Below are positions 1 to 27,296 of a stretch of DNA of 38,007 bases, in pieces. The stretch is taken from IMG/VR virus record IMGVR_UViG_2740892426_000005. One strand, 5' to 3'. The notes under the pieces were generated by a model. That model searched no databases. It was not told the DNA's origin and was given only the letters and a program-made list of their open reading frames with translations. The position numbers and the translations under genes are program-made. Position 1 is the stretch's first letter, and each line of letters opens with the position of its first letter. The DNA comes from a virus. Taxonomy: Duplodnaviria > Heunggongvirae > Uroviricota > Caudoviricetes.

Positions 1-1053
1 TTACGGGGTAATGCCAACCGCTGCCGCCACTTTGTCGCCACTTGGCAGCGTTGCCAGAGGATTGAAACGGAGCGCCGTTTCCAGATGATCCGGTGCCAGA
101 TGTGCGTAACGCATAGTCATTTTTATATCGTGGTGTCCGAGAATTTTTTGTAAGGCCAGAATGTTTCCACCCGACATCATGAAGTGCGCCGCAAACGTAT
201 GGCGCAGAACGTGTGTGAGTTGACCGCGAGGGAGCACGATAGACGTTTTTTCCATCACGGATAAAAATTGAAAATAGCAGTCTGTGAAGAAATTGAACCC
301 ATCAAGCGCCATGATCTCTTCGTAAAGCTCTTTACTGATAGGGATGCTTCTGTTTTTCTTCCCCTTCGTTCTGACAAAGGTAATTCGGTATTTGGTCACC
401 TGTGAGCGGGTAAGATTTACGGCTTCACGCCAGCGTGCGCCTGTGCTTAAGCATATCTTAACTACCAGTGCCAGAATTGGGTCCTGACGTTTGCAATCAG
501 CCAGCAATTCAACAATCTGCTCATGGGTAAGCCATGCCATCTCTTTTTCTGCGATGGTGAATTTTCGCATGTTCTCCAGTGGGTTCGGATACGACCATTC
601 GCCCAGACGGGATAGTTCGCTAAAAACACTACTTAGATAGCTTTGCTCCAGGTTAATGGTGACCGGGCTTGCTCCTTTCTTCCATTTCTCGCTGAAGTAG
701 ATCTCGCCTGTCAGGCGTTTATCTCGATAGTGGGCAAACATTTTAGAGGTGAGATCGGTTGCAAGAGGATTGCCCAGAGCGTCAACCATCAACAGCAATT
801 TGTCATAGACATGCTGCCCAGCTGTCAGAGATTTACCATGTAGTTTGAACCATAGCTCAACCACGTCTTTCAGTGTTCGACGATCCACTGATTCACCCAG
901 CCAGGGCTTTGCTTCGGTTTCTTCCATCGTGTGGCGCTCAAAAGCCAGTGCTTCGCCTTTGGTGGCGAATTGTTTACGCACACGACGCCCACTTCGTCCG
1001 GCGGGGTAACATTCGCAAAGCCATTTCCCAGTGGTGAGTTTTCGTACTGCCAT
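1..1053 (-). CDS. int: P2/186-type tyrosine integrase (350 aa)
   Basis: C-terminal catalytic region with HxxR and terminal Tyr context (LRHTFAAH...MTMRYAHL). Start placed at ATG 1053 (MAVRKLTTGKW) preceded by GGAGG about 9 nt upstream; the ORF-track extension to 1209 looks non-coding. Stop codon is at window nt 1-3. Confidence 0.85.
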   Translation of the reverse strand: MAVRKLTTGKWLCECYPAGRSGRRVRKQFATKGEALAFERHTMEETEAKPWLGESVDRRTLKDVVELWFKLHGKSLTAGQHVYDKLLLMVDALGNPLATDLTSKMFAHYRDKRLTGEIYFSEKWKKGASPVTINLEQSYLSSVFSELSRLGEWSYPNPLENMRKFTIAEKEMAWLTHEQIVELLADCKRQDPILALVVKICLSTGARWREAVNLTRSQVTKYRITFVRTKGKKNRSIPISKELYEEIMALDGFNFFTDCYFQFLSVMEKTSIVLPRGQLTHVLRHTFAAHFMMSGGNILALQKILGHHDIKMTMRYAHLAPDHLETALRFNPLATLPSGDKVAAAVGITP

Positions 1054-1241
1054 AAAAAATGCCCTCCAGTAGAGAGCATTTTTACTGTATGTATAACCAG
1101 TGTCAATGTATGAAATCCTACGACCATACATCTCACTGAAGCCATAATGAAGTTGGCTATTCTTTTTGCTATGTGAGCATGTAACTTTTGCGGTTAACCT
1201 GCGGCTCATTTTTATTTTAGACGCAGATATAAAAGCAAAAG

Positions 1242-1448: not shown

Positions 1449-2018
1449 TTATCTAACATATTTAACTGTTAAACTTATAATTTTACCAATTATTTCAATG
1501 TCTTCTATCTTACATTCGAAGGCTCTGTTTCCACCCTCGACGAAGATTCTTCCACCGGGTAAACGAGTAATGTCACGGATCGTTACTTCGCCATCAATAC
1601 TTATTACCCATTTACCATCACGTATGTCATCAAATTCTTTATCACAAATAAATTCAGAATTGTTATCTGTGATGACAAAAGGTTTTTTAAACGTAGAGGG
1701 TAGAAATCCCTTATCAAAAATATAAAAACCGTCTTCACGCAAGGCACCATCAGATAATACATATTTAGCAACTTCCATAGTATTTGTATTACCTGAAGTT
1801 TGCTTTGAACCATGTCCGGTTGTGAGCCAATTAAGCGAGGTGCCCGTTTCAAGGGCGCACTGGATTACCCATTCTGCTGGGAATGAGTCACGCATGTAGC
1901 GTGTGGCGAGTGTACTTTTAGAGATTCCTAAATGATCGCACAACGCCTGTCGAGTCTTGAATCCATAAGCTTCTACCATGCGCTCTATGGCGCCTCGTCC
2001 GCCTTTCTCCAAATTCAT
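1449..2018 (-). CDS. cI: CI-type immunity repressor (189 aa), phage 186 CI-like
   Basis: N-terminal HTH (RQALCDHLGISKSTLATRYMR), length close to 186 CI, position next to int and divergent from apl/cII. Start at ATG 2018 (RBS GGAG) rather than the GTG at 2024. Confidence 0.7.
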   Translation of the reverse strand: MNLEKGGRGAIERMVEAYGFKTRQALCDHLGISKSTLATRYMRDSFPAEWVIQCALETGTSLNWLTTGHGSKQTSGNTNTMEVAKYVLSDGALREDGFYIFDKGFLPSTFKKPFVITDNNSEFICDKEFDDIRDGKWVISIDGEVTIRDITRLPGGRIFVEGGNRAFECKIEDIEIIGKIISLTVKYVR

Positions 2019-2042
2019 GGTCACTCCGAGTGAACTTTTATC

Positions 2043-2397: not shown

Positions 2398-2907
2398 ATG
2401 TTTGATTACCAAGTTTCCAAACATCCACATTTTGATGAAGCCTGTCGTGCATTTGCACTGCGCCACAATCTGGTGCAACTGGCAGAACGTGCAGGCATGA
2501 ATGTGCAGATTCTGCGGAACAAGCTGAACCCAGCTCAGCCTCATTTATTAACCGCACCAGAAATCTGGCTGCTTACCGATCTGACTGAAGATTCAACGCT
2601 GGTAGATGGTTTTCTGGCACAGATTCATTGTCTGCCATGTGTACCGATTAATGAGGTGGCAAAAGAGAAACTGCCACATTACGTCATGAGTGCAACCGCA
2701 GAGATCGGGCGTGTTGCTGCAGGTGCGGTGTCTGGCGATGTAAAAACCTGTGCCGGTCGTCGTGATGCTATCAGCAGCATTAACTCTGTAACACGACTGA
2801 TGGCGCTGGCTGCTGTTTCATTGCAGGCCCGTTTACAGGCTAATCCTGCGATGGCGAGTGCAGTTGATACCGTGACTGGCCTCGGTGCTTCATTCGGTTT
2901 GCTGTGA
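2398..2907 (+). CDS. cII: CII-like establishment activator (169 aa)
   Basis: Length from ATG 2398 equals 186 CII (169 aa); follows apl; RBS AGAGG. The ORF-track start at 2392 is a TTG. Confidence 0.6.
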
Positions 2908-2914
2908 GGTGCTT

Positions 2915-3106
2915 ATGCTGACGAAAGAACCATCATTTGCATCGCTGCTGGTAAAACAAAGCCCGGCAATGCACTACGGTCACGGCTGGATCACGGGTGA
3001 GGATGGAAAACGCTGGCATCCATGTCATTCACAAGATGAATTGCTGTCTGAATTGACCACGAGGAAACGGAGAAAGTCCAAATGTATGCGGCAGAAAGTG
3101 AAGTAG
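2915..3106 (+). CDS. hypothetical early protein (63 aa)
   Basis: ATG with GAGGTG RBS; ORF in the early operon. Confidence 0.4.
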   Translation: MLTKEPSFASLLVKQSPAMHYGHGWITGEDGKRWHPCHSQDELLSELTTRKRRKSKCMRQKVK

Positions 3107-3306
3107 TTTATCAGTTTCGTTACAGAGGGGAGAGTTATTCAGTACCTGAAGATGATTTGCTCTGTTGCTATCCGTCATTGTCGGGAGATGGCAGTTACTT
3201 TTTCACGTTAAAGGATGGGACGTTTTTACGGGGAGAGCAGGTTAAAGAGACGATACGAAAAAATGTATCTCCTCTTGAGCGTTACCGTAAGAACAAAGAA
3301 CGATAG
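3082..3306 (+). CDS. hypothetical early protein (74 aa)
   Basis: ORF with upstream GGAG; early operon context. Confidence 0.4.
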   Translation: MYAAESEVVYQFRYRGESYSVPEDDLLCCYPSLSGDGSYFFTLKDGTFLRGEQVKETIRKNVSPLERYRKNKER

Positions 3307-3328
3307 CTGCGTTTGGGGAATATGAAGT

Positions 3329-3670
3329 ATGGCAATTAATGGCGCTGCAGCAACTGTTCCATTAAGCCCCGGTGAACGCCTGAATGGACTTAATCACATT
3401 GCGGAGTTAAGGGCGAAAGTTTTTGGCCTGAATATTGAGTCAGAGCTTGAGCGGTTTATTAAAGATATGCGTGATCCACGGGATATCAATAATGAACAAA
3501 ATAAACGGGCACTGGCTGCCATATTCTTTATGGCAAAAATTCCAGCTGAACGTCATAGCATCAGCATTAATGAGCTGACCACTGACGAAAAGCGGGAGCT
3601 GATTAAAGCAATGAATCATTTTCGTGCAGTGGTGAGCTTATTTCCCAGACGGCTAACCATGCCGAATTAA
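3329..3670 (+). CDS. hypothetical early protein (113 aa)
   Basis: ORF in early operon; no family recognised. Confidence 0.45.
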   Translation: MAINGAAATVPLSPGERLNGLNHIAELRAKVFGLNIESELERFIKDMRDPRDINNEQNKRALAAIFFMAKIPAERHSISINELTTDEKRELIKAMNHFRAVVSLFPRRLTMPN

Positions 3671-3737
3671 CCAACTAATGAAATTAATGGCGTAAACCCG
3701 CCGGGCATCCCTTTATCTAAATTCAGGAGAATTGATT

Positions 3738-3971
3738 ATGCGTAATATTGAAACCCTCTCGACCAAAACCGGACCGGATGACGCAGGGCTTAATATTTTA
3801 CTGACAGAGGCTCGTCTGGAAGAACGCCGGGCAAGAGCAGAGGCAATGGCTGCCCGCCTTGATAGCCTTGCGTGCCATATCACATCCCGCCAGCTAAACC
3901 ACGTCGAAGCGGCAGAACTGCTGCGCGTGACTGCTGAAGCAATCCAGAACGAAGCGCAGGAGATCCACTAA
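3738..3971 (+). CDS. hypothetical early protein (77 aa)
   Basis: ATG 3738 with AGGAGA RBS 7 nt upstream; the ORF-track start at 3732 is a TTG. Confidence 0.45.
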   Translation: MRNIETLSTKTGPDDAGLNILLTEARLEERRARAEAMAARLDSLACHITSRQLNHVEAAELLRVTAEAIQNEAQEIH

Positions 3972-4198
3972 TGGCTGATGCAATGGATCTCGTACAGCAG
4001 CGCGTTGAAGAAGAACGCCAGCGTCATATCCGTGCTGCCCGTGCCAAAACGCCGGGCGTGTCCCGCGTGCTTTGCATTGAGTGTGAAGCGCCAATTCCGC
4101 CAGCACGCCGCCGTGCCATTCCAGGTGTGCAGCTTTGCATTACCTGTCAGGAAATCGCAGAGCTGAAAGGCAAACATTACAACGGAGGTGCTGTATGA
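3971..4198 (+). CDS. TraR/DksA-family C4 zinc-finger protein (75 aa)
   Basis: CxxC-N17-CxxC (CIECEAPIPPARRRAIPGVQLCITCQ); the same position as the small zinc-finger ORF upstream of gene A in P2. Confidence 0.7.
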   Translation: MADAMDLVQQRVEEERQRHIRAARAKTPGVSRVLCIECEAPIPPARRRAIPGVQLCITCQEIAELKGKHYNGGAV

Positions 4199-5052
4199 GC
4201 ACCATCCTGAAATGGGCGGGAAATAAAACCGCCATTATGTCCGAACTGAAAAAGCATCTTCCTGCTGGCCCGCGACTGGTTGAACCTTTCGCGGGTTCCT
4301 GTGCAGTGATGATGGAGACGGAGTACCCCAGCTATCTTGTTGCGGATATTAATCCTGATTTAATCAACCTCTATAAAAAGGTTGCTGCTGATTGTGAATC
4401 GTTTATATCTCGCGCCAGAGTTTTATTTGAGATCGCAAACAGGGAGGTGGCTTATTACAACATAAGGCAGGAGTTTAATTACTCAACTGAAATTACTGAT
4501 TTCATGAAAGCGGTATATTTCCTGTATCTCAATCGTCACGGTTACCGTGGTTTATGTCGCTATAACAAGAGCGGGCATTTCAACATTCCCTACGGCAATT
4601 ATAAAAATCCGTATTTCCCTGAAAAAGAAATTCGCGCATTTGCAGAAAAAGCCCAGCGAGCAACGTTTATCTGCGCCAGCTTTGATGAAACGCTGGCGAT
4701 GTTGAAGGCGGGGGATGTGGTGTATTGCGATCCACCGTATGACGGTACGTTTTCCGGCTATCACACTGATGGTTTCACTGAAGATGACCAGTATCACCTA
4801 GCATCCGTTCTTGAACATCGGTCATCAGAAGGACATCCGGTCATTGTTTCTAACAGTGACACATCCCTGATCCGTTCGCTGTATCGCAATTTTACTCACC
4901 ACTATATCAAGGTAAAACGCAGCATCGGTGTGGCAGCTGGCGAGGGTAAATCAGCAACAGAAATCATTGCTGTTTCCGGGCCGCGCTGCTGGGTGGGATT
5001 TGATTATTCGCGTGGCGTGGATAGTTCTGCCGTGTACGGAGTACGTGCATGA
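4195..5052 (+). CDS. dam: Dam-family N6-adenine DNA methyltransferase (285 aa)
   Basis: N-terminal LKWAGNK and FAGSCAV AdoMet motif, catalytic DPPY; start ATG 4195 with GGAGGTG RBS, overlapping the TraR-like stop; stop overlaps gene A start (ATGA). Confidence 0.85.
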
Positions 5053-7463
5053 GCCATGCCGATATGAACAACTGCTGCGGCTTTAACGAGGCTGCCGCAG
5101 CGTTCTCATGGAACAGCCCGAAAAAGGCCATTAACCCTTATCTGGACCCGGCGGAAGTTGCGCCGGTTTCTGCGCTTTCAAACCTGATCACTCTGTACGC
5201 TGCCGATAACGAGCAGGAACAGTTGCGCCGCGAGGCACTGAGTGATCAGGTCTGGGAGCGTTATTTTTTTAATGAATCACGTGATCCTGTCCAGCACGAA
5301 ATGGAGCAGGATAAGCTCATTAGCCGGGCAAAGCTGGCGCATGAGCAGCAGCGTTTTAATCCGGATATGGTCATTCTGGCGGACGTCAACGCCCAGCCTT
5401 CCCATATCAGCAAGCCGCTGATGCAACGTATTGAATACTTCAGCAGCCTGGGCAGGCCAAAGGCTTATTCCCGCTATTTACGTGAGACGATTAAGCCATG
5501 TCTGGAACGACTGGAGCATGTACGCGACAGCCAGCTATCTGCATCTTTTCGTTTTATGGCAAGCCATGTAGGGCTGGACGGCCTGCTGATTCTGCCTGAA
5601 ATGAGTCAGGATCAGGTGAAACGCCTGTCTACCCTTGTCGCTGCGCATATGAGCATGTGCCTTGATGCAGCTTGTGGTGATTTGTATGCCACCGATGACG
5701 TTAAGCCAGAAGAAATCCGCAAGACATGGGAAAAGGTGGCAGCGGAAACCCTGCGTCTGGATGTCATCCCGCCTGCGTTTGAGCAACTCCGTCGGAAAAG
5801 AAACCGCCGTAAACCCGTGCCCTATGAACTCATTCCGGGTTCGCTGGCGCGTATGTTGTGCGCCGACTGGTGGTACCGGAAATTATGGAAAATGCGTTGC
5901 GAATGGCGGGAAGAGCAGTTGCGTGCTGTCTGCCTAGTCAGCAAAAAAGCATCTCCCTATGTCAGCTATGAAGCCGTGATGCATAAACGTGAGCAGCGCC
6001 GCAAGTCACTGGAGTTTTTCCGTTCTCATGAACTGGTGAACGAAGAGGGCGACACGCTGGATATGGAAGACGTGGTAAACGCCAGCAGCAGCAACCCGGC
6101 GCACCGCCGCAATGAGATGATGGCCTGTGTTAAAGGTCTGGAGCTTATCGCGGAAATGCGCGGTGACTGCGCCGTTTTCTACACCATTACCTGTCCGTCA
6201 CGTTTCCATTCCACGCTCAATAACGGCAGACCAAACCCAACCTGGACAAATGCGACGGTAAGACAAAGCAGCGATTATCTGGTCGGCATGTTTGCTGCAT
6301 TTCGTAAGGCGATGCACAAAGCCGGGTTGCGCTGGTATGGCGTGCGGGTGGCTGAGCCGCATCATGACGGTACAGTTCACTGGCACCTGTTGTGTTTTAT
6401 GCGCAAAAAAGACCGCCGCGCCATTACTGCATTGTTGCGTAAGTTTGCCATCCGTGAAGACCGCGAGGAACTGGGTAATAACACTGGTCCACGCTTTAAA
6501 TCTGAGCTGATAAACCCGCGCAAAGGAACGCCGACAAGCTACATCGCGAAATACATCAGTAAGAACATTGACGGGCGTGGTCTGGCTGGCGAGATCAGCA
6601 AGGAAACGGGTAAATCCCTGCGTGATAACGCTGAATACGTTAATGCCTGGGCGTCTCTGCATCGTGTTCAGCAATTCCGCTTCTTTGGTATTCCAGGGCG
6701 TCAGGCTTACCGTGAACTGCGGTTGTTGGCTGGTCAGGCGGCAAGGCAGCAGGGTGACAAAAAAGCAGGTGCGCCGGTACTGGATAACCCGCGCCTTGAT
6801 GCCATCCTGGCTGCTGCTGATGCTGGCTGTTTTGCCACCTACATTATGAGGCAGGGCGGCGTGCTGGTTCCTCGCAAATATCACTTGATCAGAACCGCTT
6901 ATGAAATCAATGAAGAGCCGACCGCCTATGGCGATCACGGTATTCGTATTTATGGCATCTGGTCACCCATTGCAGAAGGCAAGATCTGCACTCATGCAGT
7001 GAAGTGGAAAATGGTTCGTAAAGCCGTTGACGTTCAGGAGGCGGCAGCCGACCAGGGCGCTTGCGCCCCTTGGACTCGTGGCAATAACTGTCCCCTTGCT
7101 GAAAATTTGAACCAACAGGAGAAAGATAAATCAGCTGATGGGGACACCAGAACGGACATTACCCGCATGGATGACAAGGAGTTGCACGATTACTTGCACA
7201 GTATGAGCAAAAAAGAGCGCCGGGAACTGGCTGCAAGGTTACGCCTGGTTAAACCGAAACGGCGTAAAGACTACAAACAGCGAATTACAGACCATCAGCG
7301 ACTGCAGCTCGTCTATGAGCTGAAGTCCAGAGGATTTGATGGTAGCGAGAAAGAGGTCGATTTACTCCTTCGCGGCGGCAGTATTCCGTCAGGAGCAGGC
7401 CTGCGTATCTTCTATCGGAACCAGCGTTTGCAGGAAGATGATAAGTGGCGGAACCTGTATTAA
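5049..7463 (+). CDS. A: replication initiation protein A, rolling-circle nickase (804 aa)
   Basis: P2 gpA-like size and position; HUH-type motif region [10 protein letters not shown]; translationally coupled to dam. Confidence 0.9.
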
Positions 7464-7532
7464 TTACGCGGGTTAACAATTCGTGCTCTTAATAATACCA
7501 GGCATATCAGGCTGATGAACGTAAAAAAACGT

Positions 7533-7561
7533 TTTACATCAGTAATATTATTATATACTGT
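7533..7561 (+). promoter_or_regulatory. candidate SOS promoter (-35 TTTACA, -10 TACTGT) overlapped by the LexA box
   Basis: Hexamers read directly; the -10 overlaps the CTGT half of the LexA box. Confidence 0.45.
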
Positions 7562-7575
7562 AAATATAAACAGTG
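7556..7575 (+). promoter_or_regulatory. LexA operator (SOS box) TACTGTAAATATAAACAGTG
   Basis: Perfect CTGT-N8-ACAG with AT-rich spacer, about 40 nt upstream of the ORF at 7616. Confidence 0.7.
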
Positions 7576-7615
7576 GTTATGTATACAGTATTGATTTGGT
7601 GTCATAGGAGGAAAG

Positions 7616-7804
7616 ATGCAGGACTATTTTTTGGAGTCTTTGAAGCTCCAGCGCATTGATTTTTTTCTTAAGCTTGTAGCGGCTAGTGAGTGTAGTGATG
7701 AAGAGAAGGGGCTGGCTCTGCAGTGGGTTTCTGAACTGACAGATGAACTCATGGCAAAAATCAGAACCCACGAATACAACCGCTCAATGGATGTCATCAG
7801 CTGA
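7616..7804 (+). CDS. small SOS-controlled protein (62 aa), possible Tum-like antirepressor module
   Basis: AGGAGG RBS 5 nt upstream of ATG; directly downstream of the LexA box; 186 places its LexA-controlled tum operon at this position. Function is inferred by position only. Confidence 0.45.
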   Translation: MQDYFLESLKLQRIDFFLKLVAASECSDEEKGLALQWVSELTDELMAKIRTHEYNRSMDVIS

Positions 7805-7814
7805 GGTGACTTTT

Positions 7815-8048
7815 ATGCGCATTGAAATAATGATCGATAAAGAGCAGAAGATTAGCCAGTCTACACTGGACGCCCTTGAATCCGAGCTTTACCGCAATCT
7901 GCGCCCCCTGTATCCCAAAACGGTAATCCGTATCCGTAAAGGTAGCTCTAACGGTGTGGAACTGACCGGACTGCAACCGGACGAAGAAAGAAAACAAGTG
8001 ATGAAAATTATGCAGAAGGTGTGGGAAGACGACAGCTGGCTGCATTAA
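7815..8048 (+). CDS. dinI: DinI-family protein (77 aa)
   Basis: MRIEIMIDKEQ... start and ...MQKVWEDDSWLH C-terminus resemble DinI (MRIEV... and acidic W-containing C-terminus); GAGGTGA RBS overlapping the upstream stop. Confidence 0.7.
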   Translation: MRIEIMIDKEQKISQSTLDALESELYRNLRPLYPKTVIRIRKGSSNGVELTGLQPDEERKQVMKIMQKVWEDDSWLH

Positions 8049-8492
8049 GAAATGTTGCCCCCAGGAGGATTCATTCTAATGGGGGCTAGTTTGGGCAACG
8101 AGTGAAACGAGGCGTAAGGTGGGTAATCATTTTGATAAGTGATCGCCCACTTTGTGCCAAAAGCGGACATCGCAGATATGACAATATGTTAGTCAACCGC
8201 GATTAGATCAGTCAGTTGGAGATGGGGGGAAGTTACAAAAACTTGTCGTCCGCCATCTCCGACTACGGGTATTCTTAACTGTACATGCTCTTTCAATCGA
8301 TGATTTTTGAGTAAGTGACTAACCTATTGTTTTGATAGTAATTAAACGTATAAACGTGCGGAGTTAATTTGAAAGTTATGTGTCTATGTTTGACAAGCAA
8401 AATTTTAAAGATTGGTTTTATCCACAGGTAATTTATGCTATTAATAGCCTCAAGCCCTGTAATTATTTTTATTTAAATGGATAAATTTGAAA

Positions 8493-10613
8493 ATGAGTAC
8501 ATATCATAATGATCAGCCAATACTAGGTGGTCAAAATGACCCCGATTTATTAAACAGGCTCGATTTTGCAAATCACTTGGCAAATATTCTACTATTAAAT
8601 CACAATGATGATTGCCTTACTGTATCTATAGAGGCAGAGTGGGGATATGGTAAAACGTCAGTGATAAATCTTATAAAAGGTGCTTTGAATGAAAAGGAGT
8701 TCTTACCAATAATAATAGAATATAATCCATGGCTGGCCGGTCAACCTGAATCCTTGATTCAGGATTTTTTATTACAGTTCTCTTCACAACTAAATATTAA
8801 AGACAATTCAAAAGCTGCTTTGGAAGCTTCAAAAGAATTAATTGCATACTCCAATCTCTTCAGTGTAGCAAAACTTATTCCAGGGACAGAACCTTGGGCA
8901 TCTATCATAGAAAAAGTCCTCTCTAATTTTGGGAGTGCTACTAAAAAGATTGCTGAATTAAAAAAACTGGATCTTTTAGGTAGAAAAAAACAAGTAGAGA
9001 AGGCAATAAAAAAAATAAAAAATCCTATTGTGGTAATAATTGATGATATTGATCGATTGACTCCTACAGAAACTTTTCAAGTTTTACGATTGGTTAAAGC
9101 TGTTGCAGATTTCTCAGGAACTTCTTTTTTACTTGCATTTGATCCTAATTATTTGATTTCTGTGCTTGATAAAAATAATATCGTCAATTCTTCGGAGTAT
9201 CTTAATAAAATTGTTCAACTTCGAGTCCCACTTCCTGTAATCTCAGAAAGGGGTATGAATGAACTTGCAAATGCAGAACTGGAAAAGATAGCTAATAAAT
9301 CTTTAACTGACAGATTCGAAAGTGATCAAGAAAGACTAAGCTGGATTTATCATAATTATTTTAAAAAGCTAATTAAGAATCCGAGAGAGTTAAAAAGATT
9401 TTTTAACCATTTGAGATTCGTTTTAGAGCAAATTGAAGGGCAGGTATGTTTTTCTGATCTCTTTGCTTTATCTCTGGTCGCCACTAAATCGAGTTTGGTA
9501 TACGAGCATATTAAAAGCACACCAGAGGCATATATAGGGAAGAGATTCACTAATGATGGCCTTTTGATGGATAAACCTCAAGATATTGTGGATAGATTTA
9601 GTGATGAGCGAAATAAGAAACTGAGTAATTTTTCTGATCAAGAGCGTTCAGTGATGCAGGAACTCTTAGGAGATATTTTCCCACTTCTACAGTCAAGCGG
9701 GTATTCTCATTATGGGGTTTCTGATCCCGATACAGCAGGAAGGGTTTCTGCACCACAAAGGCTTCATATTGCGTTTCATTATAAAACTCCAGCAGGGTAT
9801 ATTTCTGATCATGATATTATCAGTTTCATTAATGGAGATGTTAAAAGAAACGAATTTCTAAGAGATGTGCTCTCGCAAAATGCAGAAGAAAGATTTTTTG
9901 AAATGATGAATAATTATTCGAGTTATTGTAAGGATAATAGTTTTGAAATATTAACGTGTATTTATGATACTTTTCTGTTTTCTCAAGAATTGAAATCCTC
10001 ATTGGAAAGAAACTATGGTTTTTTGACAAAAGATCTTTATAGAAGGATGAATTGGCTCACTAATAAGGTAATATCTGAAAGTGATGATAAATATGGGTTG
10101 ATAAAGGGGGTTGTAGGTAGGCATGAGAATGCGCCACTTGGTGCAGACGTATTATGCCAAGCTCGTAAACAGATTCAAAATGGATGGAATGACAAAATAT
10201 GGGTTAGTATTGAAGAATTGGCTGAACTTGAAGGTATCTTTCAACAGGTGGCTATTAAAGTTTTAAGTGATAAAATATATTTTGATTATCATCTTGAATC
10301 TCATATATTTTTCGAATTAAAGAGAGTTTCATCTCAATTTACATCAGAGTTTATTGCTTCTGTATTATCAAGTGATGGCCTGATTAGGATGTGTGAGATT
10401 ATTGGTGAAACAGGTAGTGATTCAACAAATGGCCCTTATTTTAAGTTTGATGAAATTTACTTCGGGGAAATACTTGATGTGAATGAACTTCGAAATAAAG
10501 CGAAAAATTTAGATTTTTCAATTTATCCCACACGCATTCAAGCTGTACTTAAGAGTATTCTGGATGGACAAAAATATTATTTGAGAGATGCAACTGTTGG
10601 TGAAGATTGGTAA
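8493..10613 (+). CDS. KAP-family P-loop NTPase (706 aa), candidate accessory/defence gene
   Basis: Walker A in KAP context (EAEWGYGKTS), Walker B (VVIIDDIDR), long helical C-terminal region; AT-rich by eye. Start at ATG 8493; the ORF-track start at 8487 is a TTG. Confidence 0.7.
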   Translation: MSTYHNDQPILGGQNDPDLLNRLDFANHLANILLLNHNDDCLTVSIEAEWGYGKTSVINLIKGALNEKEFLPIIIEYNPWLAGQPESLIQDFLLQFSSQLNIKDNSKAALEASKELIAYSNLFSVAKLIPGTEPWASIIEKVLSNFGSATKKIAELKKLDLLGRKKQVEKAIKKIKNPIVVIIDDIDRLTPTETFQVLRLVKAVADFSGTSFLLAFDPNYLISVLDKNNIVNSSEYLNKIVQLRVPLPVISERGMNELANAELEKIANKSLTDRFESDQERLSWIYHNYFKKLIKNPRELKRFFNHLRFVLEQIEGQVCFSDLFALSLVATKSSLVYEHIKSTPEAYIGKRFTNDGLLMDKPQDIVDRFSDERNKKLSNFSDQERSVMQELLGDIFPLLQSSGYSHYGVSDPDTAGRVSAPQRLHIAFHYKTPAGYISDHDIISFINGDVKRNEFLRDVLSQNAEERFFEMMNNYSSYCKDNSFEILTCIYDTFLFSQELKSSLERNYGFLTKDLYRRMNWLTNKVISESDDKYGLIKGVVGRHENAPLGADVLCQARKQIQNGWNDKIWVSIEELAELEGIFQQVAIKVLSDKIYFDYHLESHIFFELKRVSSQFTSEFIASVLSSDGLIRMCEIIGETGSDSTNGPYFKFDEIYFGEILDVNELRNKAKNLDFSIYPTRIQAVLKSILDGQKYYLRDATVGEDW

Positions 10614-10729
10614 TACTTTTATAGGCATGCTTAGAGATGATGGAGTATCTTTTTCTCCCTTTTGAGGAAGTGATTTCCAACTGGGCATGGATGCCACATC
10701 AAATGGACAGTTGTTGTCACCTGTCAGTT

Positions 10730-10753
10730 AGCTGCTATTTGTTTATAGCAGCT
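10730..10753. other. perfect 9-bp stem-loop (AGCTGCTAT / ATAGCAGCT) downstream of the KAP gene
   Basis: Inverted repeat read directly; no flanking T-run, so not a canonical intrinsic terminator. Confidence 0.3.
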
Positions 10754-11057
10754 GAAAGCCCACTACATAGTTACACCAGAAGGAGTAACAATGTAGTGGA
10801 TAGCTAAATTTGACCACCTTAACAGATATGTTAATTTCCCCCCCCTCGCTCACAGCGGACTTTCATCTTTGTAAACCCTTATAATTCGCTTTTCAGCGGT
10901 CATTCAGATACGGATTTACGCTTTCCTTGGCAGTGCATGACTATGACGCATGAGATCGCATGATCGTTTGAGGATCGTTTTTGCTGAGGCCAGCCAGAAC
11001 TGGCGTGCTTTTGCTTATGTCATGCAGGTGCATGAAAACCACTACATAAAGTGGGCA

Positions 11058-11076
11058 GGCGTGGCGGGGATACGAT
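11058..11076. other. cos cohesive-end site GGCGTGGCGGGGATACGAT (P2/186-like)
   Basis: 16/19 match to the 186 cohesive end as I recall it (GGCGTGGCGGGGAAAGCAT); lies in the expected A-to-Q interval in a locally GC-richer patch. Confidence 0.6.
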
Positions 11077-11133
11077 TGCGCGCGCAAGCTAAAGTGGCAA
11101 TAATGAGCATGTAAGGTAAAATTCAAGGAGATT

Positions 11134-11250
11134 ATGATGTATATCTGCGAAAGTCACATTGTTGAATCAAATATAAAAACTAATTTTTTCGCAAAATATA
11201 CGAGGTATTTGTGCTTTTTGTTGTGCAGATACTGTTTGTTTAGATACTGA
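11134..11250 (+). CDS. 38-codon ORF with strong RBS (AAGGAG-N4-ATGATG), out of frame with the downstream RES ORF; possible frameshifted 5' end of that gene
   Basis: Read directly; overlaps the stop-free upstream extension (11177 onward) of the RES reading frame; T6 tract at 11184-11189 and T5 at 11215-11219. Confidence 0.35.
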   Translation: MMYICESHIVESNIKTNFFAKYTRYLCFLLCRYCLFRY

Positions 11251-11269
11251 TTCTTCAGAAGTACGTAAT

Positions 11270-12286
11270 TTGTTGAAAGCTATTCTGAGATATCATTATG
11301 ATGAAGTCGATTACAATACTCATTTTGGAGGGGAGTATTACCCGAGTTTTCTATTGGAAGATGATTTTATTTTCACCAAGGATATACAGGAGCATGATGA
11401 ATCTTTTGGGGAACTCGATAGCGAATTGTGGGATATGGCATTTGATAGTGAGGGAATAAATATTTATGCAGGCTATGGATCTGATGGTCTATATAATACG
11501 CCATATATGTCTATCAGAAATGCACATCAGCCATTTTTAGATTCTCTGTCAAAACAGCTTTCAGAAAAGAATTACCATGATTTTGAAGGTGAGCTAAGAA
11601 GTATTATAAAAGGTTATGGTGATATTTTTTCGAAGATAATAGAAGGAAGTTCTGTGGTATATAGAGCCAGAGTTGGGACTGCTGGCTATAAAACAGCACT
11701 TAGAGGATTTAGCCGTGAAGGAAAGAAAATATTTGTTCCATTTAAAGATAAGGAAATAGGAGCCGTGCCACCACTAAAGGCTACTGCTGGCAGGGCTAAT
11801 AGAGCAGGCGTTTCTTACCTTTATTGTGCTACAGATAGTTATACTGCAATTGCGGAAGTTCGACCTCATCCAACAGATGTGGTTTCAATTGGTAAATTTA
11901 GAGTTGCAAAAGCATTAAAGGTATTCGATTTTTCTTATCCTAATTTTTTAGAGTTTATTGAGAGTGATGAAAGTTTATTATCCATGATACCATATGCAAA
12001 GATGGCAGGTATTTTTAATACTGCAACTCCACCTTCCTTAGAAGGAAGATATAGTGTGTCCCAACTAATATCTGATTGTATAAGGAAAGAGGGGTATGAT
12101 GGTATACAATTTTCAAGTACAGTTGGTAAAGGTAAGAACTTGGTTGTTTTTAATCCTTCATGTATGGAATTTATAGATGGTTCATCAAAAGTAATAGAAA
12201 TTGACAAGGTTCAGTATATTTACGAGGAAAAGCAGGTTGTTGGTATGAATGATCAATGGGAGATTTATTACGATGAAGTTGAATAA
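11270..12286 (+). CDS. RES-domain protein with about 165-aa N-terminal extension (338 aa as called); candidate NAD-targeting toxin/abortive-infection effector
   Basis: RES signature residues in context: GRANRAGVSYLYCATDSYTAIAEV (Arg, Glu) and GYDGIQFSSTVGKGKNLVVF (Ser). The called start is TTG with a weak RBS; the frame is open from 11177; the first in-frame ATG is at 11435. AT-rich by eye. Confidence 0.6.
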   Translation: MLKAILRYHYDEVDYNTHFGGEYYPSFLLEDDFIFTKDIQEHDESFGELDSELWDMAFDSEGINIYAGYGSDGLYNTPYMSIRNAHQPFLDSLSKQLSEKNYHDFEGELRSIIKGYGDIFSKIIEGSSVVYRARVGTAGYKTALRGFSREGKKIFVPFKDKEIGAVPPLKATAGRANRAGVSYLYCATDSYTAIAEVRPHPTDVVSIGKFRVAKALKVFDFSYPNFLEFIESDESLLSMIPYAKMAGIFNTATPPSLEGRYSVSQLISDCIRKEGYDGIQFSSTVGKGKNLVVFNPSCMEFIDGSSKVIEIDKVQYIYEEKQVVGMNDQWEIYYDEVE

Positions 12287-12291
12287 GTGAT

Positions 12292-12329
12292 AATAGCCCC
12301 ATTGAGAATTTTCATTTCTCTTGGGGCTA
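12292..12329. terminator. stem-loop between convergent RES and Q genes (TAGCCCCA...TGGGGCTA with inner GAGAA/TTCTC)
   Basis: Inverted repeat read directly; no strong T-run, so function as a terminator is uncertain. Confidence 0.3.
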
Positions 12330-12338
12330 ACTTAAATA

Positions 12339-13370
12339 TTAATCAAAGCAATATGAATTGAATGTAATTAAATCTTCACCTAGCCAATCATTGACCTCCT
12401 CCATCCTTTTTTGTAAAGGTAGCAACTCGTTTCGAACAAACACATTAGCAGCCTTCTCCACATCCCCAAATCCCCCGAGATTATTTGGCATTATCCCCAT
12501 CATCTGTGGCGGCACGCGGTGTGCTGCCATCATGTCATCGCGACTAACATTTTTGATATTCAGAAATTCATCCTTCGCCGCGACTTCTGACAACGGGATA
12601 ATCTGAAGTCCGTCCTTTTTGCCGTTCGGCGAGTACATAAACAGGTTGCGGAAGTTGCCCGGACCTTTGGCGCTTTTCATCGCATTACGGAGGTTGTTCA
12701 CATCTTCCTGGTTCTGCGCGGCATCGGTCATGTACATGATGAAGCCTGCATGACTACCGTTAATGTAATACTTCCGGCGGAACAGCGTGGCGGACTCGTT
12801 GAGCAGGGCTGACGGAATGGCAGAAAGATAACCGGGCAGGCCGTAGATCTCCTGGTTGATATCCGGTTCCATCAGGTGAAAAATGCTGCCTTTCGTGAAC
12901 TGATACGGCTGTGTAGTCATGCCGTATTGCACAAACCAGTAGGTATCCAGGTCTAACCCGCGTCGGGTGTATTTTGCCAGCGCAGGCTCAAGGGCGATAA
13001 CTTCACCGAATCGGTTCGTGCGTTTCTCCAGGTAGGCGTTACCAAATACCAGATAGTCCTGCACAAAACGTGAAAAAGCCTGCTGGCTGAGCAGCGGGTG
13101 AGGGATGTAGGTACTGGTCAGAATGTTGCACTTTACTGCAATCGGGGAACTGTGATGCACTGCAGCGCGGAAGGTGCGCGCCAGTCCGTCAAAGCTGACG
13201 GGCGGCTCATACCAACGGTCCATCTGTACGCATTCCACATAGTCCAGTAATTCTCGGCGGTCCAGAACAGGAACGGGATCGCCGAAGCTGAATGCTTCGG
13301 CTGTAGTTTGACTTTTAAGCTGGATCTGTTTCGTCGCCGCAGCGCGGTTCTTCTTACTCTTTCCCATCAA
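12339..13370 (-). CDS. Q: portal protein (343 aa)
   Basis: P2 gpQ-like size and position; coupled to P (ATGA overlap). Confidence 0.9.
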   Translation of the reverse strand: MMGKSKKNRAAATKQIQLKSQTTAEAFSFGDPVPVLDRRELLDYVECVQMDRWYEPPVSFDGLARTFRAAVHHSSPIAVKCNILTSTYIPHPLLSQQAFSRFVQDYLVFGNAYLEKRTNRFGEVIALEPALAKYTRRGLDLDTYWFVQYGMTTQPYQFTKGSIFHLMEPDINQEIYGLPGYLSAIPSALLNESATLFRRKYYINGSHAGFIMYMTDAAQNQEDVNNLRNAMKSAKGPGNFRNLFMYSPNGKKDGLQIIPLSEVAAKDEFLNIKNVSRDDMMAAHRVPPQMMGIMPNNLGGFGDVEKAANVFVRNELLPLQKRMEEVNDWLGEDLITFNSYCFD

Positions 13371-15133
13371 AAAATCTCCACAATATTGCTGGTATTGGCG
13401 GATTCGCCCTGCAGCGGTTCGTTAAACAGTGCGTGCATCGTTGCCCAGGCCAGATCGGCGTGGCTGGCTTCTTCGCTGCGGCTGGCTTCATAGGTCGGGC
13501 GGTTGCCACTGGCGGTGGTGGCGCGACGGATTGCCATGAATGACTGCGCAATGTCGGTGTGCCCGGCGTCAAACTCCAGACGGTGGTGGCTGATAATGTC
13601 GTAGGCCTTGAGTACCAGAGCGTTTTTAACGTTGGGGTTGTAGACAAACTCCCGGACGGCTGGAAAAAACGCTTTCACGTTCTCGTAAACCCCGTGGCCG
13701 ACACCTGTCGAGTCGATGCCGATGTAGGTCACGTTGTACTGCTCGGTCAGTTTTTTGATGGCGTCAGCCTGGGCGCGGAAGTCCATGCCGCGCCACTGGT
13801 GACGCTCAAGAATGCGGAACTTACCACCAGGCACGGCTGGCGGTGCCACCACCACGCATCCGGCGCTGTCGCCGTTTTGCGTACCTTTTGCCGGGTCATA
13901 ACCGATCCACACTTCGCGCCAGCCAAACGGGCGCAGAGCCAGTGCATGAAAGTCGGTCCAGACTTCCCAGCTGTCCACCATGCACGCCTGCAGCTCGCTG
14001 AGCGGAAACACGGACGCGAGATCGTCCACAAACTCGCACATCAGCAGGTTCTGGTATTCGTCCGGGCTGTACTCCATGCGTAGCTGGTCGAGGTCGAACA
14101 GGTTACAGCCGCCGCGCACCGCATCTTCCACGGTGACTATCTGGCGGTATTGCCCGTCTGCGCACAGCAGGCCGGGGGCCAGATTGCTGTGGGACAGGTC
14201 GATGTCCACCTTGTCGGCTTTGTTGCGCCCACGGTTGAACAGCGCACCGGACCAGAACGGATAAGCACTGTGTGTCAGACTGGATGGCGTGGAAAAATAG
14301 GTCTGTCGCCATTTTTTGTGAATAGCCATACCGGAAGCCACTTTGTGCAGCTCCTGGAATTTCGGTATCCAGAAATATTCATCCAGATACAGGTTGCCGT
14401 GATAACTCTGGGCCGTGCGGGCATTGGTGCCGAGGAAGTAAAGCGTGGCTCCGTTAGGAAGCATCATCGGATCGCCTTTCAGCTCCACCTCGACTTCTTT
14501 GGCGAAGTCTATGATGTACTGCTTAAAGACGTGAGCCTGTGCCTTACTGGCAGAAAGGAAAATCTGGTTACGTCCGGTAAGCAGGGCGTCAATCAGGGCT
14601 TCACGGGCAAAGTAAAAGGTCGCGCCGATCTGGCGTGACTTCAGCAGGTTGCGGATGCGGTTGTTTTTTCCGGCTTCCCACCAGTGGCGCTGGTAGTTGA
14701 ACATGGAGGAATGGAAAATTTCTTCCAGCTTCTCAATCTGTTCATCGGTGAAAACATTCTTTTCCGGCTGACGGCGTGGGCCTTTATTGCGGTTGGTGAC
14801 GTTAGGGTTTAAGTCGGCTTCGTTGCCGCCATTGTTAAACTTGCCGATCCGCGCGTGGCGCTCAGACTGGCGCGCCAGCAGGTCAATCTCTTTGAAATCT
14901 TTCCCTTCTTTGTGCTCCTTCATAATGAGCTGGCAGTAGCGTGCGGCGGTGGTGAGCTGCATCTGATCCAGCGGCCCATAGTCACCCCACTTGTCGCGTT
15001 TTTTCCAGCTGTGAACGGTTGCAACTTTCTCGCCCAGCATTTCAGCAATGCGGGCGACGCGGTATCCCTGAAAGTACAGCAGCATGGCCTGCCGACGGGG
15101 ATCGAGATCTGCGGGTGTCAGTGTGGTGTTCAT
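13367..15133 (-). CDS. P: terminase large (ATPase) subunit (588 aa)
   Basis: P2 gpP-like size and position adjacent to portal and divergent from O. Confidence 0.9.
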   Translation of the reverse strand: MNTTLTPADLDPRRQAMLLYFQGYRVARIAEMLGEKVATVHSWKKRDKWGDYGPLDQMQLTTAARYCQLIMKEHKEGKDFKEIDLLARQSERHARIGKFNNGGNEADLNPNVTNRNKGPRRQPEKNVFTDEQIEKLEEIFHSSMFNYQRHWWEAGKNNRIRNLLKSRQIGATFYFAREALIDALLTGRNQIFLSASKAQAHVFKQYIIDFAKEVEVELKGDPMMLPNGATLYFLGTNARTAQSYHGNLYLDEYFWIPKFQELHKVASGMAIHKKWRQTYFSTPSSLTHSAYPFWSGALFNRGRNKADKVDIDLSHSNLAPGLLCADGQYRQIVTVEDAVRGGCNLFDLDQLRMEYSPDEYQNLLMCEFVDDLASVFPLSELQACMVDSWEVWTDFHALALRPFGWREVWIGYDPAKGTQNGDSAGCVVVAPPAVPGGKFRILERHQWRGMDFRAQADAIKKLTEQYNVTYIGIDSTGVGHGVYENVKAFFPAVREFVYNPNVKNALVLKAYDIISHHRLEFDAGHTDIAQSFMAIRRATTASGNRPTYEASRSEEASHADLAWATMHALFNEPLQGESANTSNIVEIF

Positions 15134-26868: not shown

Positions 26869-26870
26869 TT

Positions 26871-27227: not shown

Positions 27228-27241
27228 AACGTTTAAGAAAA
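27216..27241. repeat. cix/gix/hix-like inversion site 2 (TTCTCCTAAACC-AA-CGTTTAAGAAAA)
   Basis: Reverse complement TTTTCTTAAACG-TT-GGTTTAGGAGAA matches site 1 in 10/12 right-arm positions with the same central TT; about 55 nt upstream of the invertase gene. Confidence 0.6.
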
Positions 27242-27296
27242 TGCAGCGATTACGACTAACTGGCATCATCCCCGATTTTTATTCAAGGAGATGATC

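What the first reader, a model, noticed from the sequence alone, without database searches (positions are those of the whole stretch)
8493..10613. KAP-family P-loop NTPase as candidate defence gene at the old position
The 706-aa protein has Walker A in the KAP context (AEWGYGKTS) and Walker B (VVIIDDIDR), followed by a long, largely helical C-terminal region with no recognisable effector domain. It sits on the right side of cos, where P2 encodes the Old nuclease/ATPase. It could act alone or as a sensor for a separately encoded effector, such as the RES protein 656 bp downstream. Whether the two act together cannot be decided from sequence.
Basis: partly seen in the sequence, partly recalled or inferred. 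Interest (0 to 1): 0.75.

Follow-up and report, generated by a model that had tools for sequence, protein, structure and literature searches.

The report
PifA-like defence ATPase in P2 prophage
This gene encodes a stand-alone ATPase distantly related to PifA, the F-plasmid protein that aborts phage T7 infection, carried as cargo in the known defence hotspot of a P2-like prophage; it is a plausible but untested new member of a known kind of anti-phage protein and does not work with the neighbouring RES gene.

Summary
Window 8493-10613 (+) is an intact 706-aa ORF with a strong KAP P-loop NTPase domain (Pfam E 2e-46), Walker A A48-S56, Walker B V180-R188, and an all-helical C-terminal half with no Pfam domain.

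It is a distant, full-length homologue of F-plasmid PifA (PADLOC PifA model E 2e-64; profile comparison 99.9%, E 4e-37). Its closest solved fold is the ring-forming RADAR ATPase RdrA. It sits in low-GC cargo between replication gene A and cos, the slot where P2 carries tin/old.

The family (~707 aa) is spread across Gammaproteobacteria as a single gene with no conserved neighbour, so it most likely acts alone.

The RES link is not supported:
- cos (11058-11076) lies between the two genes.
- They are separate cassettes: 18 E. coli genomes carry this KAP allele, 6 a RES homologue, and 2 both.
- RES homologues elsewhere lack KAP neighbours.
- Stand-alone RES proteins (aRES) are a published defence.
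- The RES gene here carries a 2-base deletion.

Single-gene KAP defences are already published (PifA, EF_KAP, Reve), so this is a new member of a known kind. Phage targets and killing mechanism remain untested. Interest is moderate to low.

The parts
8169..8492 (+). Cassette-specific AT-rich upstream region; the gene's own promoter is presumed to lie here but was not located.
   Evidence: Similarity to other P2-like prophages with different cargo ends at 8148-8168. GC is about 36-41%. The consensus promoter scan over 7440-12400 gave no excess over shuffles, 19 found against 18.5 expected. The 79% paralogue in another phage slot shares only 25 bp upstream of the ATG.
8493..10613 (+). PifA-family KAP P-loop NTPase gene, 706 aa (WP_021521997.1).
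8565..9419 (+). KAP NTPase domain (aa 25-309). Walker A is at nt 8634-8660 and Walker B at nt 9030-9056.
8871..8966 (+). Insert between Walker A and B (aa 127-158) carrying the conserved motif K-L-[IV]-P-G-[AT]-E-P-W-A-S. It occupies the position where a characterised KAP NTPase (EF_KAP) has a transmembrane helix inside the NTPase domain. There is no TM helix here.
   Evidence: This is the only segment with pLDDT below 50 in the good model, yet the motif is conserved across the family. The maximum 19-residue Kyte-Doolittle hydrophobicity in the protein is 1.48. EF_KAP has a TM helix within its KAP domain (PMC13552941), and PifA lacks TM helices (PMC13001434).
9813..10610 (+). Fast-evolving all-helical C-terminal domain (aa 441-706); proposed sensor or specificity module.
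   Evidence: pLDDT is about 90. Mean pairwise identity is 20%, against 40-42% for the NTPase. Most distant relatives of about 700 aa match only aa ~5-475. Almost no invariant residues. No Pfam domain.
10760..10799 (+). 18-nt-arm hairpin about 150 bp after the KAP stop codon, inside the KAP cassette; possibly a terminator. Not tested.
   Evidence: Inverted repeat I2, 89% complementary, 4-nt loop.
10846..11085 (.). Conserved cos segment that separates the two cargo slots. The 19-nt cohesive end GGCGTGGCGGGGATACGAT is at 11058-11076. This is a boundary, not part of the KAP system.
   Evidence: 85% identity over 65 nt to the end-to-end junction of phage 186, whose record starts with an annotated cos, and a weaker match to the P2 junction. 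The segment is shared by prophages that carry different cargo on either side. It is present in 833 of 5426 E. coli genomes and in P2-like phages of Klebsiella, Salmonella and Yersinia.
11134..12286 (+). Neighbouring RES-domain gene (aRES-like). It is a separate cassette in the cos-gpQ slot, frameshifted in this window, and not part of the KAP system.
   Evidence: Pfam RES, E 2e-18. It is intact at 384 aa in NZ_CP053079. The window lacks 2 A's at 11175-11179. Independent distribution is shown.

Best explanation
The gene encodes a stand-alone, single-protein anti-phage system of the PifA type, carried as moron cargo in the gpA-cos slot of a P2-like prophage.

Proposed mechanism:
1. The N-terminal KAP P-loop NTPase (aa ~25-350) is an ATP-driven switch. 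Like its closest solved relative RdrA, it probably assembles into a ring-shaped oligomer.
2. The rapidly diverging helical C-terminal domain (aa ~441-706) recognises one or a few proteins of an infecting phage. For F PifA the determinants are T7 gp1.2 and the capsid protein gp10.
3. Recognition changes the nucleotide or oligomer state and stops the infection.
4. No enzymatic effector domain is present. The output is therefore most likely PifA-like, meaning a lesion at the inner membrane with depolarisation and nucleotide leakage that aborts infection. The conserved PGAEPWAS insert may mediate this; it sits where a characterised KAP NTPase (EF_KAP) has a transmembrane helix.

Status of each step:
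- Shown here: domain identity, intact catalytic motifs, full-length homology to PifA, fold similarity to RdrA, the hotspot location, solitary inheritance, and the conservation gradient along the protein.
- Inferred: the defence function itself, the sensor role of the C-terminus, oligomerisation, and the membrane output.
For: Homology and fold:
- Pfam KAP_NTPase, E 2e-46.
- PADLOC PifA model, E 2e-64, aa 3-447.
- BLASTP to an F-type plasmid PifA encoded next to pifC: 26% identity over aa 43-360, E 3e-21.
- hhalign of a 41-sequence family profile against PifA: probability 99.94%, E 3.9e-37, columns 28-700 against 29-737.
- Walker A and B residues are invariant.

Location:
- Low-GC cargo in the published P2 defence hotspot between gpA and gpQ (PMC9122126; PMC13586616).
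- A 74-79% paralogue sits in a different slot (gpD-ogr) of other P2-like prophages.

Solitary inheritance:
- Homologues at 68% identity or more, full length, occur in Vibrio, Aeromonas, Shewanella, Enterobacter, Serratia and others.
- They are inserted as a single gene between unrelated housekeeping or plasmid genes, with no shared neighbour.

Conservation gradient:
- The C-terminal third evolves fastest.

Published precedent:
- PifA aborts T7 infection with membrane depolarisation and nucleotide leakage, and lacks TM helices (PMC8594841; PMC13001434).
- KAP NTPases fused to unknown C-terminal regions defend Enterococcus and need both Walker B and the C-terminal region (PMC13552941).
- Reve, a single-gene KAP system from a P4 hotspot, protects E. 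coli (PMC13586616).
Against: - No experiment exists for this protein or its ~707-aa clade. The accession numbers appear in no held paper.
- The protein is far from F PifA. It scores 216 bits over two-thirds of the PADLOC PifA profile, against 963 bits full length for PifA itself. Pairwise BLASTP sees no C-terminal similarity. Phage target and output may therefore differ.
- EF_KAP was reported not to act by abortive infection (PMC13552941).
- Maffei et al. question whether defence is PifA's primary role (PMC8594841).
- No membrane-binding element was demonstrated, and there is no TM helix.
- tblastn found no copy in 50,697 deposited phage genomes, so carriage is documented only for prophages.
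- 3 of the 18 near-identical E. coli copies look disrupted, each annotated as two CDSs.
Confidence: 0.62

Rival explanations
1. Two-gene system: the KAP NTPase senses infection and activates the downstream RES NAD+ phosphorylase as its effector.
For: - The genes are adjacent and co-oriented in the prophage.
- In 5 of the 6 E. coli genomes with a RES homologue, the gpA-side slot holds a KAP-type NTPase. That is this one in 2 genomes and an unrelated PADLOC PDC-S49 protein in 3.
Against: - cos (11058-11076) lies between the genes, so they sit at opposite ends of the packaged genome.
- The cassette boundaries coincide with the cos segment.
- 16 of the 18 genomes with this KAP allele lack RES. The one opened (NCTC9041) carries Shosta in the cos-Q slot instead.
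- RES homologues occur without any KAP gene in E. coli, Proteus and Flavobacterium.
- KAP homologues in other genera have no RES neighbour.
- Stand-alone RES proteins defend on their own (bioRxiv 10.64898/2026.01.28.702374).
- The RES gene is frameshifted here while the KAP gene is intact.
- The 5-of-6 count may represent as few as two lineages (three genomes share 99.6% RES identity with the same PDC-S49 arrangement, two share 99.8%; relatedness not tested).
Confidence: 0.04
2. The protein needs a host-encoded partner or target, such as a membrane protein, rather than being fully self-contained. It is a sensor and switch whose effector is chromosomal.
For: - No effector domain is recognisable.
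- Its nearest structural relative RdrA works with a separate effector, RdrB (PDB 8hr7, 'RdrA-RdrB complex', listed).
- From my own knowledge, not checked here: overproduction of the host membrane protein FxsA suppresses PifA exclusion of T7 (Molineux laboratory).
Against: - The gene moves between distant genera (Vibrio, Aeromonas, Shewanella, Enterobacterales) at 68% identity or more. Any partner would have to be universally conserved.
- EF_KAP-type proteins from other genera worked when expressed in E. faecalis (PMC13552941).
Confidence: 0.17
3. It is not an anti-phage system. The ATPase would serve the prophage or host in another way, for example exclusion of plasmids or satellites, DNA or membrane housekeeping, or another lysogenic-conversion trait.
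For: - Maffei et al. suggest PifA may primarily have another function, given its very narrow phage range (PMC8594841).
- Many homologues sit between housekeeping genes rather than in obvious defence islands.
Against: - It occupies two different cargo slots of P2-like prophages, one of which is dominated by defence systems (PMC9122126).
- In most E. coli copies it is paired with Shosta across cos.
- All tested single-gene KAP proteins of this architecture were defensive (PMC13552941; PMC13586616).
- The patchy, horizontally transferred distribution and fast-evolving C-terminus fit a conflict system.
Confidence: 0.13
4. It is decaying or inert cargo with no current function.
For: - 3 of the 18 near-identical E. 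coli copies appear split, each annotated as two CDSs.
- The neighbouring RES gene is frameshifted.
Against: - A 706-codon intact ORF in AT-rich DNA.
- Identical or 99.6-100% identical copies in 18 genomes.
- Full-length conservation with invariant catalytic residues across hundreds of homologues.
Confidence: 0.04

Closest known systems
PifA of the F plasmid (phage inhibition by F; abortive infection of T7)
   Same: - Single large protein of similar size, 706 against 741 aa.
- KAP P-loop NTPase at the N-terminus and a helical C-terminal half.
- No transmembrane helices.
- Carried on a mobile element.
- Full-length profile homology: hhalign 99.9%, E 3.9e-37. The best PADLOC model is PifA.
   Different: - Only 26% identity in the NTPase and about 18% overall. 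The C-terminal similarity is invisible to BLASTP.
- 216 bits against 963 bits on the PifA profile.
- No pifC repressor gene upstream.
- Prophage-borne, not plasmid-borne.
- Phage specificity and output are untested.
RdrA, the ATPase of the RADAR defence system (PDB 8fnt, 8fnu, 8hr8)
   Same: - One RdrA entry is itself named 'KAP NTPase domain-containing protein'.
- RdrA forms heptameric rings, which suggests how this protein may assemble.
   Different: - RdrA works with the partner RdrB (PDB 8hr7, RdrA-RdrB complex). No comparable gene is nearby here.
- Sequence identity is 11-15%.
- The global TM-score is only about 0.3.
Recently validated single-gene KAP defences: EF_KAP and three metagenomic KAP proteins (PMC13552941); Reve from a P4 satellite hotspot (PMC13586616)
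   Same: - Same design: a KAP NTPase fused to a C-terminal region of unknown function, acting as one gene.
- Reve also comes from the P2/P4 hotspot world.
   Different: - EF_KAP has two TM helices and was reported as not abortive.
- The sequences of these proteins were not available to me (no supplements held), so relatedness to this clade is untested.
P2 Old (and Tin), the genes at this position in P2 itself
   Same: - Same slot between gene A and cos.
- Old is also an ATPase that excludes another phage, according to the P2 record's annotation.
   Different: - The P2 record calls Old an 'AAA family ATPase' and exonuclease. No OLD-family model appeared among the Pfam or PADLOC hits of this protein.
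- old and tin are annotated on the opposite strand to gene A.
- The resemblance is positional only.
QatA of QatABCD and PADLOC candidates PDC-S20 and PDC-S49
   Same: All contain KAP-type NTPase domains. There are weak partial hits to the QatA and PDC-S20 models.
   Different: - QatA NCBIfam score is 38.5 bits against a cut-off of 600, and no qatBCD genes are present.
- PDC-S49 is the unrelated KAP protein found next to RES in other prophages.

Membership tests
KAP family P-loop NTPases (Pfam PF07693) | Match to the family profile above the curated threshold | tested here: met
   159 bits against a cut-off of 20, E 2e-46, profile positions 4-288 of 293.
KAP family P-loop NTPases (Pfam PF07693) | Intact Walker A ([AG]xxxxGK[ST]) and Walker B (hhhhDD) motifs | tested here: met
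   A48-EWGYGKT-S56 and V180-VIIDDIDR188. G51, G53, K54, D184, D185, D187 and R188 are invariant in 41 diverse homologues.
KAP family P-loop NTPases (Pfam PF07693) | Transmembrane helices associated with the NTPase domain (described for the family and for EF_KAP, but absent from PifA) | tested here: not met
   The maximum 19-residue Kyte-Doolittle score is 1.48, so no TM segment is predicted. The insert aa 127-158 is not hydrophobic enough. PifA likewise lacks TM helices (PMC13001434), so this does not exclude membership.
PifA (F plasmid) family | Full-length sequence homology to F PifA | tested here: met
   hhalign probability 99.94%, E 3.9e-37, over 653 columns. BLASTP alone covers only aa 43-360 at 26% identity.
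PifA (F plasmid) family | Full-length match to the PADLOC PifA model at a score comparable to PifA | tested here: inconclusive
   It is the best PADLOC hit, but at 216.5 bits over profile 4-456 of 720. F PifA gives 963 bits over 2-718. This places the protein as a superfamily member outside the core PifA clade.
PifA (F plasmid) family | pif operon context (pifC repressor immediately upstream) | tested here: not met
   Upstream are a 62-aa ORF and a DinI-like gene, followed by 444 bp of non-coding DNA. pifC is adjacent in the F-type plasmid.
PifA (F plasmid) family | Abortive exclusion of T7 determined by gp1.2 and gp10, with membrane permeability lesions | not testable with these tools
   This needs phage challenge and membrane assays. 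The published behaviour of PifA is described in PMC8594841 and PMC13001434.
RADAR (RdrA/RdrB) | RdrA-like ATPase fold | tested here: met
   [not shown]
RADAR (RdrA/RdrB) | Adjacent RdrB partner gene | tested here: not met
   No further ORF of 60 aa or more lies between 8049 and 11133 apart from the KAP gene, and homologues elsewhere have no such neighbour. The protein is therefore not RADAR.
QatABCD (QatA) | Score above the NCBIfam QatA equivalog cut-off, with qatBCD neighbours | tested here: not met
   38.5 bits against a cut-off of 600. The neighbours are a DinI-like gene and RES.
aRES (for the neighbouring RES gene only) | Stand-alone protein of 300-600 aa with a RES domain plus an N-terminal PF18870 domain | tested here: inconclusive
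   The RES domain is met at E 2.8e-18, the intact length is 384 aa, and the gene is stand-alone in other contexts. PF18870 is not detected by hmmscan, although distant full-length homologues carry PF18870 plus PF08808. The HHsearch criterion of the paper was not runnable here. In this window the gene is frameshifted.

The most novel reading that the evidence does not exclude
This ~707-aa clade may be a soluble KAP ATPase with no effector domain that becomes the effector itself. On binding a phage protein through its variable C-terminal domain, an RdrA-like ring would use the strictly conserved but structurally undefined PGAEPWAS insert to engage and breach the inner membrane. That insert occupies the position where a characterised KAP NTPase (EF_KAP) has a transmembrane helix. 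If so, the clade would give the first tractable structural model for how PifA-type abortive infection works, a question open since the 1980s-90s.
Probability: 0.15. Interest if true: 0.6.

Novelty: new member of a known kind. Interest (0 to 1): 0.35.

Why it matters
- PifA was one of the first abortive-infection proteins described, yet its mechanism is still unknown. KAP NTPases have only just been shown to be a broad class of single-gene defences.
- This clade is small, soluble, strongly conserved across Gammaproteobacteria, confidently modelled, and native to E. coli prophages. That makes it a convenient experimental entry point.
- The locus also shows how the P2 hotspot is really two slots separated by cos, each exchanging cassettes independently. 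This matters when deciding which neighbouring genes form one system.
- Beyond that, the finding is an expected kind of cargo in an expected place.

Tried and rejected
1. Partnership with RES. Rejected on the cos position, cassette boundaries, co-occurrence counts and RES contexts.
2. Conserved partner gene elsewhere. None was found in six further contexts.
3. Transmembrane helices. None predicted.
4. Own promoter or terminator. The consensus promoter scan was no better than shuffles, 19 against 18.5. Terminator-like sites were 7 against 2.6 expected, but none is convincingly placed right after the gene.
5. Structured RNA in 7400-12400. No Rfam match at E up to 0.1.
6. Repeats around the cassette. 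Only short chance-level matches and one hairpin.
7. Copies in deposited phage genomes. tblastn found none.
8. Solved structures by sequence. None found.
9. First AlphaFold2 run with close homologues only. It gave a poor NTPase model (pLDDT 66) and only weak fold hits. It was redone with diverse representatives.
10. AFDB50 fold search. The library was not available, so a direct structural comparison with PifA's C-terminal domain was not possible.
11. Aravind et al. 2004 (PMC416466). Not held.
12. Supplements of PMC13586616. Not held, so the Reve sequence could not be compared.
13. Accession numbers of the KAP and RES proteins. They appear in no held paper.
14. DefensePredictor paper. It does not mention KAP or PifA.
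Full report
**The locus**

The window is a P2/186-like prophage of E. coli. Its features are:
- integrase, 1-1209 (-)
- 186-type CI repressor, 1449-2024 (-)
- Dam-type methylase, 4135-5052
- replication gene A, 5049-7463
- a 62-aa ORF, 7616-7804
- a DinI-like gene, 7815-8048
- the finding, 8493-10613
- a RES-domain gene
- portal gpQ, 12339-13370 (-)
- terminase gpP, 13367-15133 (-)

GC content falls from 53-58% in the phage backbone to 33-39% between about 8000 and 12500. The KAP and RES genes are therefore foreign cargo.

**Check of the observation**

The ORF runs from ATG 8493 to the stop at 10613 and encodes 706 aa. It is identical to RefSeq WP_021521997.1 in E. coli K56-43-un.

Pfam gives KAP_NTPase at E 2e-46 for aa 25-309. 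Walker A (A48-S56) and Walker B (V180-R188) are present. Their key residues are invariant in 41 homologues that go down to 22% identity.

The rest of the protein is helical and has no Pfam domain.

**What it is**

The best PADLOC model is PifA, at E 2e-64 for aa 3-447. I compared the protein directly with a PifA encoded next to pifC on an F-type plasmid. That gave 26% identity over aa 43-360 (E 3e-21) and nothing detectable in the C-terminal half.

A profile built from 41 diverse full-length relatives aligns with PifA over essentially the whole length. hhalign gives 99.94% probability and E 3.9e-37, with columns 28-700 aligned to 29-737.

Calibration shows the distance. F PifA scores 963 bits over the whole PADLOC profile, while this protein scores 216 bits over the first two-thirds. 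It belongs to the PifA superfamily but lies outside the core clade.

An exhaustive HMMER search of 1.84 billion cluster representatives found 14,428 relatives at E ≤ 1e-3 and 929 at E ≤ 1e-30. About a quarter of the best 150 match from end to end. Most of the others are also about 700 aa long but match only aa ~5-475.

Mean pairwise identity is 40-42% in the NTPase, 25% in the middle region and 20% in aa 441-706. The same gradient is seen among close homologues, at 85-87% against 63-69%. The C-terminal domain has almost no invariant residues. This argues for a recognition surface rather than an enzyme.

**Structure**

With close homologues only, AlphaFold2 modelled the C-terminal domain well but the NTPase poorly (pLDDT 66). 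With the diverse alignment the model reached pLDDT 85.7 and pTM 0.78. Only aa 127-158 stayed below 50.

That segment lies between Walker A and B. It carries the strongly conserved motif K-L-[IV]-P-G-[AT]-E-P-W-A-S and sits where a characterised KAP NTPase (EF_KAP) has a transmembrane helix within the NTPase domain (PMC13552941). No transmembrane helix is predicted here. PifA lacks them as well (PMC13001434).

**Context and distribution**

Among 5,426 complete E. coli genomes:
- 18 carry this allele at 99.6% identity or more, all in the same prophage slot.
- 2 carry a 79% paralogue located between gpD and ogr of another P2-like prophage.

Full-length homologues at 68% identity or more occur in Vibrio, Aeromonas, Shewanella, Serratia, Enterobacter, Klebsiella, Yersinia and Salmonella. 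In the contexts I opened, the gene is inserted singly between unrelated housekeeping genes, or next to ParA/ParB genes. It shares no neighbour across these contexts. This is the pattern of a self-sufficient, horizontally mobile single-gene cassette.

**The RES gene and cos**

1. The cohesive-end site is at 11058-11076 (GGCGTGGCGGGGATACGAT). Window 11019-11083 aligns at 85% to the right-end/left-end junction of phage 186, whose record begins with an annotated cos. It aligns more weakly to the P2 junction. The KAP gene therefore lies in the gpA-cos slot, where P2 has tin and old. The RES gene lies in the cos-gpQ slot. In packaged DNA they are at opposite ends of the genome.

2. Cassette boundaries follow this division.
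   - Backbone similarity ends at 8148-8168.
   - Prophages with KAP plus a different right-hand cassette share 7400-11085.
   - Prophages with a different left-hand cassette plus RES share 10846-12400.
   - The overlap is the cos segment. It is present in 833 of 5,426 genomes and in P2-like phages of several genera.
   - A RES homologue is in 6 genomes, and only 2 of these also have this KAP gene.
   - 16 of the 18 genomes with the KAP allele lack RES. In the one I opened (NCTC9041), KAP is followed across cos by a Shosta system with a PRTase and a DprA-like protein.
   - RES relatives sit without any KAP gene in another E. coli P2 hotspot, after ogr in a Proteus prophage, and in a Flavobacterium defence island.

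3. The RES gene of intact relatives starts at ATG 11134 and encodes 384 aa. The window lacks two A's in the run 11175-11179. The frame therefore closes after 38 codons, and the 338-aa ORF from TTG 11270 is a remnant.

Stand-alone RES proteins of 300-600 aa have been shown to defend by NAD+ phosphorolysis and are named aRES (bioRxiv 10.64898/2026.01.28.702374). Distant full-length homologues of this RES protein have the aRES domain pair PF18870 plus PF08808. hmmscan does not see PF18870 in this protein itself.

One weak hint remains in favour of a link. In 5 of the 6 RES-carrying genomes the other slot holds a KAP-type NTPase: this one in two genomes, and an unrelated PDC-S49 protein in three. 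These may represent as few as two lineages, judging from near-identical RES sequences and shared arrangements; I did not test relatedness. I consider the pattern coincidental.

**Mechanism**

The best-supported reading is a PifA-type single-protein defence with three parts:
- an ATP-dependent switch, probably a ring-forming one
- a fast-evolving C-terminal sensor for a phage protein
- an output at the membrane

For PifA the published picture is abortive infection of T7, with sensitivity depending on gp1.2 and gp10, accompanied by depolarisation and nucleotide leakage (PMC8594841; PMC13001434).

For KAP proteins of the same design in Enterococcus, Walker B and the C-terminal region were both required. 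EF_KAP itself was reported as not abortive (PMC13552941). A single-gene KAP system from a P4 hotspot, Reve, protects E. coli strongly (PMC13586616).

Domain identity, motifs, homology, fold, location and solitary inheritance are shown here. The defence function, sensor role, oligomerisation and membrane output are inferred.

**Novelty and score**

This is a new, untested member of a known kind. The family is already captured by a PADLOC model, the hotspot is published, and single-gene KAP defences have been validated. What remains open is the mechanism of the whole PifA class, for which this soluble, well-modelled clade could be a useful model.

Interest is 0.35. The most novel reading not excluded is that the conserved insert makes the ATPase itself the membrane effector. 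I give that a probability of about 0.15.

Noticed in passing
window 11134-12286 (A-run 11175-11179): The RES-domain gene is broken by a 2-base deletion in a homopolymer A-run, compared with the intact 384-aa gene of NZ_CP053079 and four other E. coli genomes. This is either a real pseudogene or a homopolymer sequencing error. The intact protein has a Cys/His-rich N-terminus (YICESH...GICAFCCADTVC) and looks like an aRES-type stand-alone NAD+ phosphorylase.
   Followed up: partly
window 10846-11087, cos at 11058-11076: The cos site lies in the middle of the gpA-gpQ 'hotspot' and divides it into two cargo slots that exchange independently. The ~155-240-bp cos segment is the shared sequence at the cassette junctions and occurs in 833 of 5426 E. 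coli genomes. RefSeq annotates a 54-aa 'hypothetical protein' (10950-11114) across it, which is probably spurious.
   Followed up: yes
L002 (NZ_LR134296) 6808-8347, equivalent to the cos-gpQ slot: In a relative (NCTC9041) that carries the same KAP gene, the slot on the other side of cos holds a Shosta system: a 191-aa PRTase-like ORF, unannotated in RefSeq, plus a DprA-like ShosA.
   Followed up: partly
L003 (NZ_CP141089) 2472-4364: A different 630-aa KAP-type NTPase (PADLOC candidate PDC-S49, E 4e-156) occupies the gpA-cos slot in the three other E. coli prophages that carry the same RES gene. Two unrelated KAP-type proteins thus sit next to RES in 5 of 6 genomes. This is probably coincidence but was not tested statistically.
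   Followed up: partly
L006 and L018-L021, 5001-7103: A 74-79% paralogue of the KAP gene sits between gpD and ogr in other P2-like prophages integrated near ihfA/pheST. This is a further cargo position at the right end of the tail operon.
   Followed up: partly
window 21024-21830 (-): A second low-GC island (about 34% GC) inside the late genes holds a 268-aa DUF6216 protein on the opposite strand. It has no PADLOC hit and may be cargo of the second P2 hotspot.
   Followed up: partly
window 26428-27863: A Hin/Cin-type serine invertase (27291-27863) lies next to oppositely oriented tail-fibre C-terminus and assembly genes (26871-27269 and 26428-26868). This suggests an invertible host-range segment in this P2-like prophage.
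   Followed up: no
window 10760-10799: A strong hairpin (18-nt arms, 89% complementary, 4-nt loop) lies about 150 bp downstream of the KAP stop codon, inside the KAP cassette. It has no T-run, and its function is unknown.
   Followed up: no
window 8871-8966 (aa 127-158 of the KAP protein): The motif K-L-[IV]-P-G-[AT]-E-P-W-A-S is conserved in the family down to about 25% overall identity, yet it is the only part AlphaFold2 cannot place. It lies between Walker A and B, where the characterised KAP NTPase EF_KAP has a transmembrane helix.
   Followed up: partly
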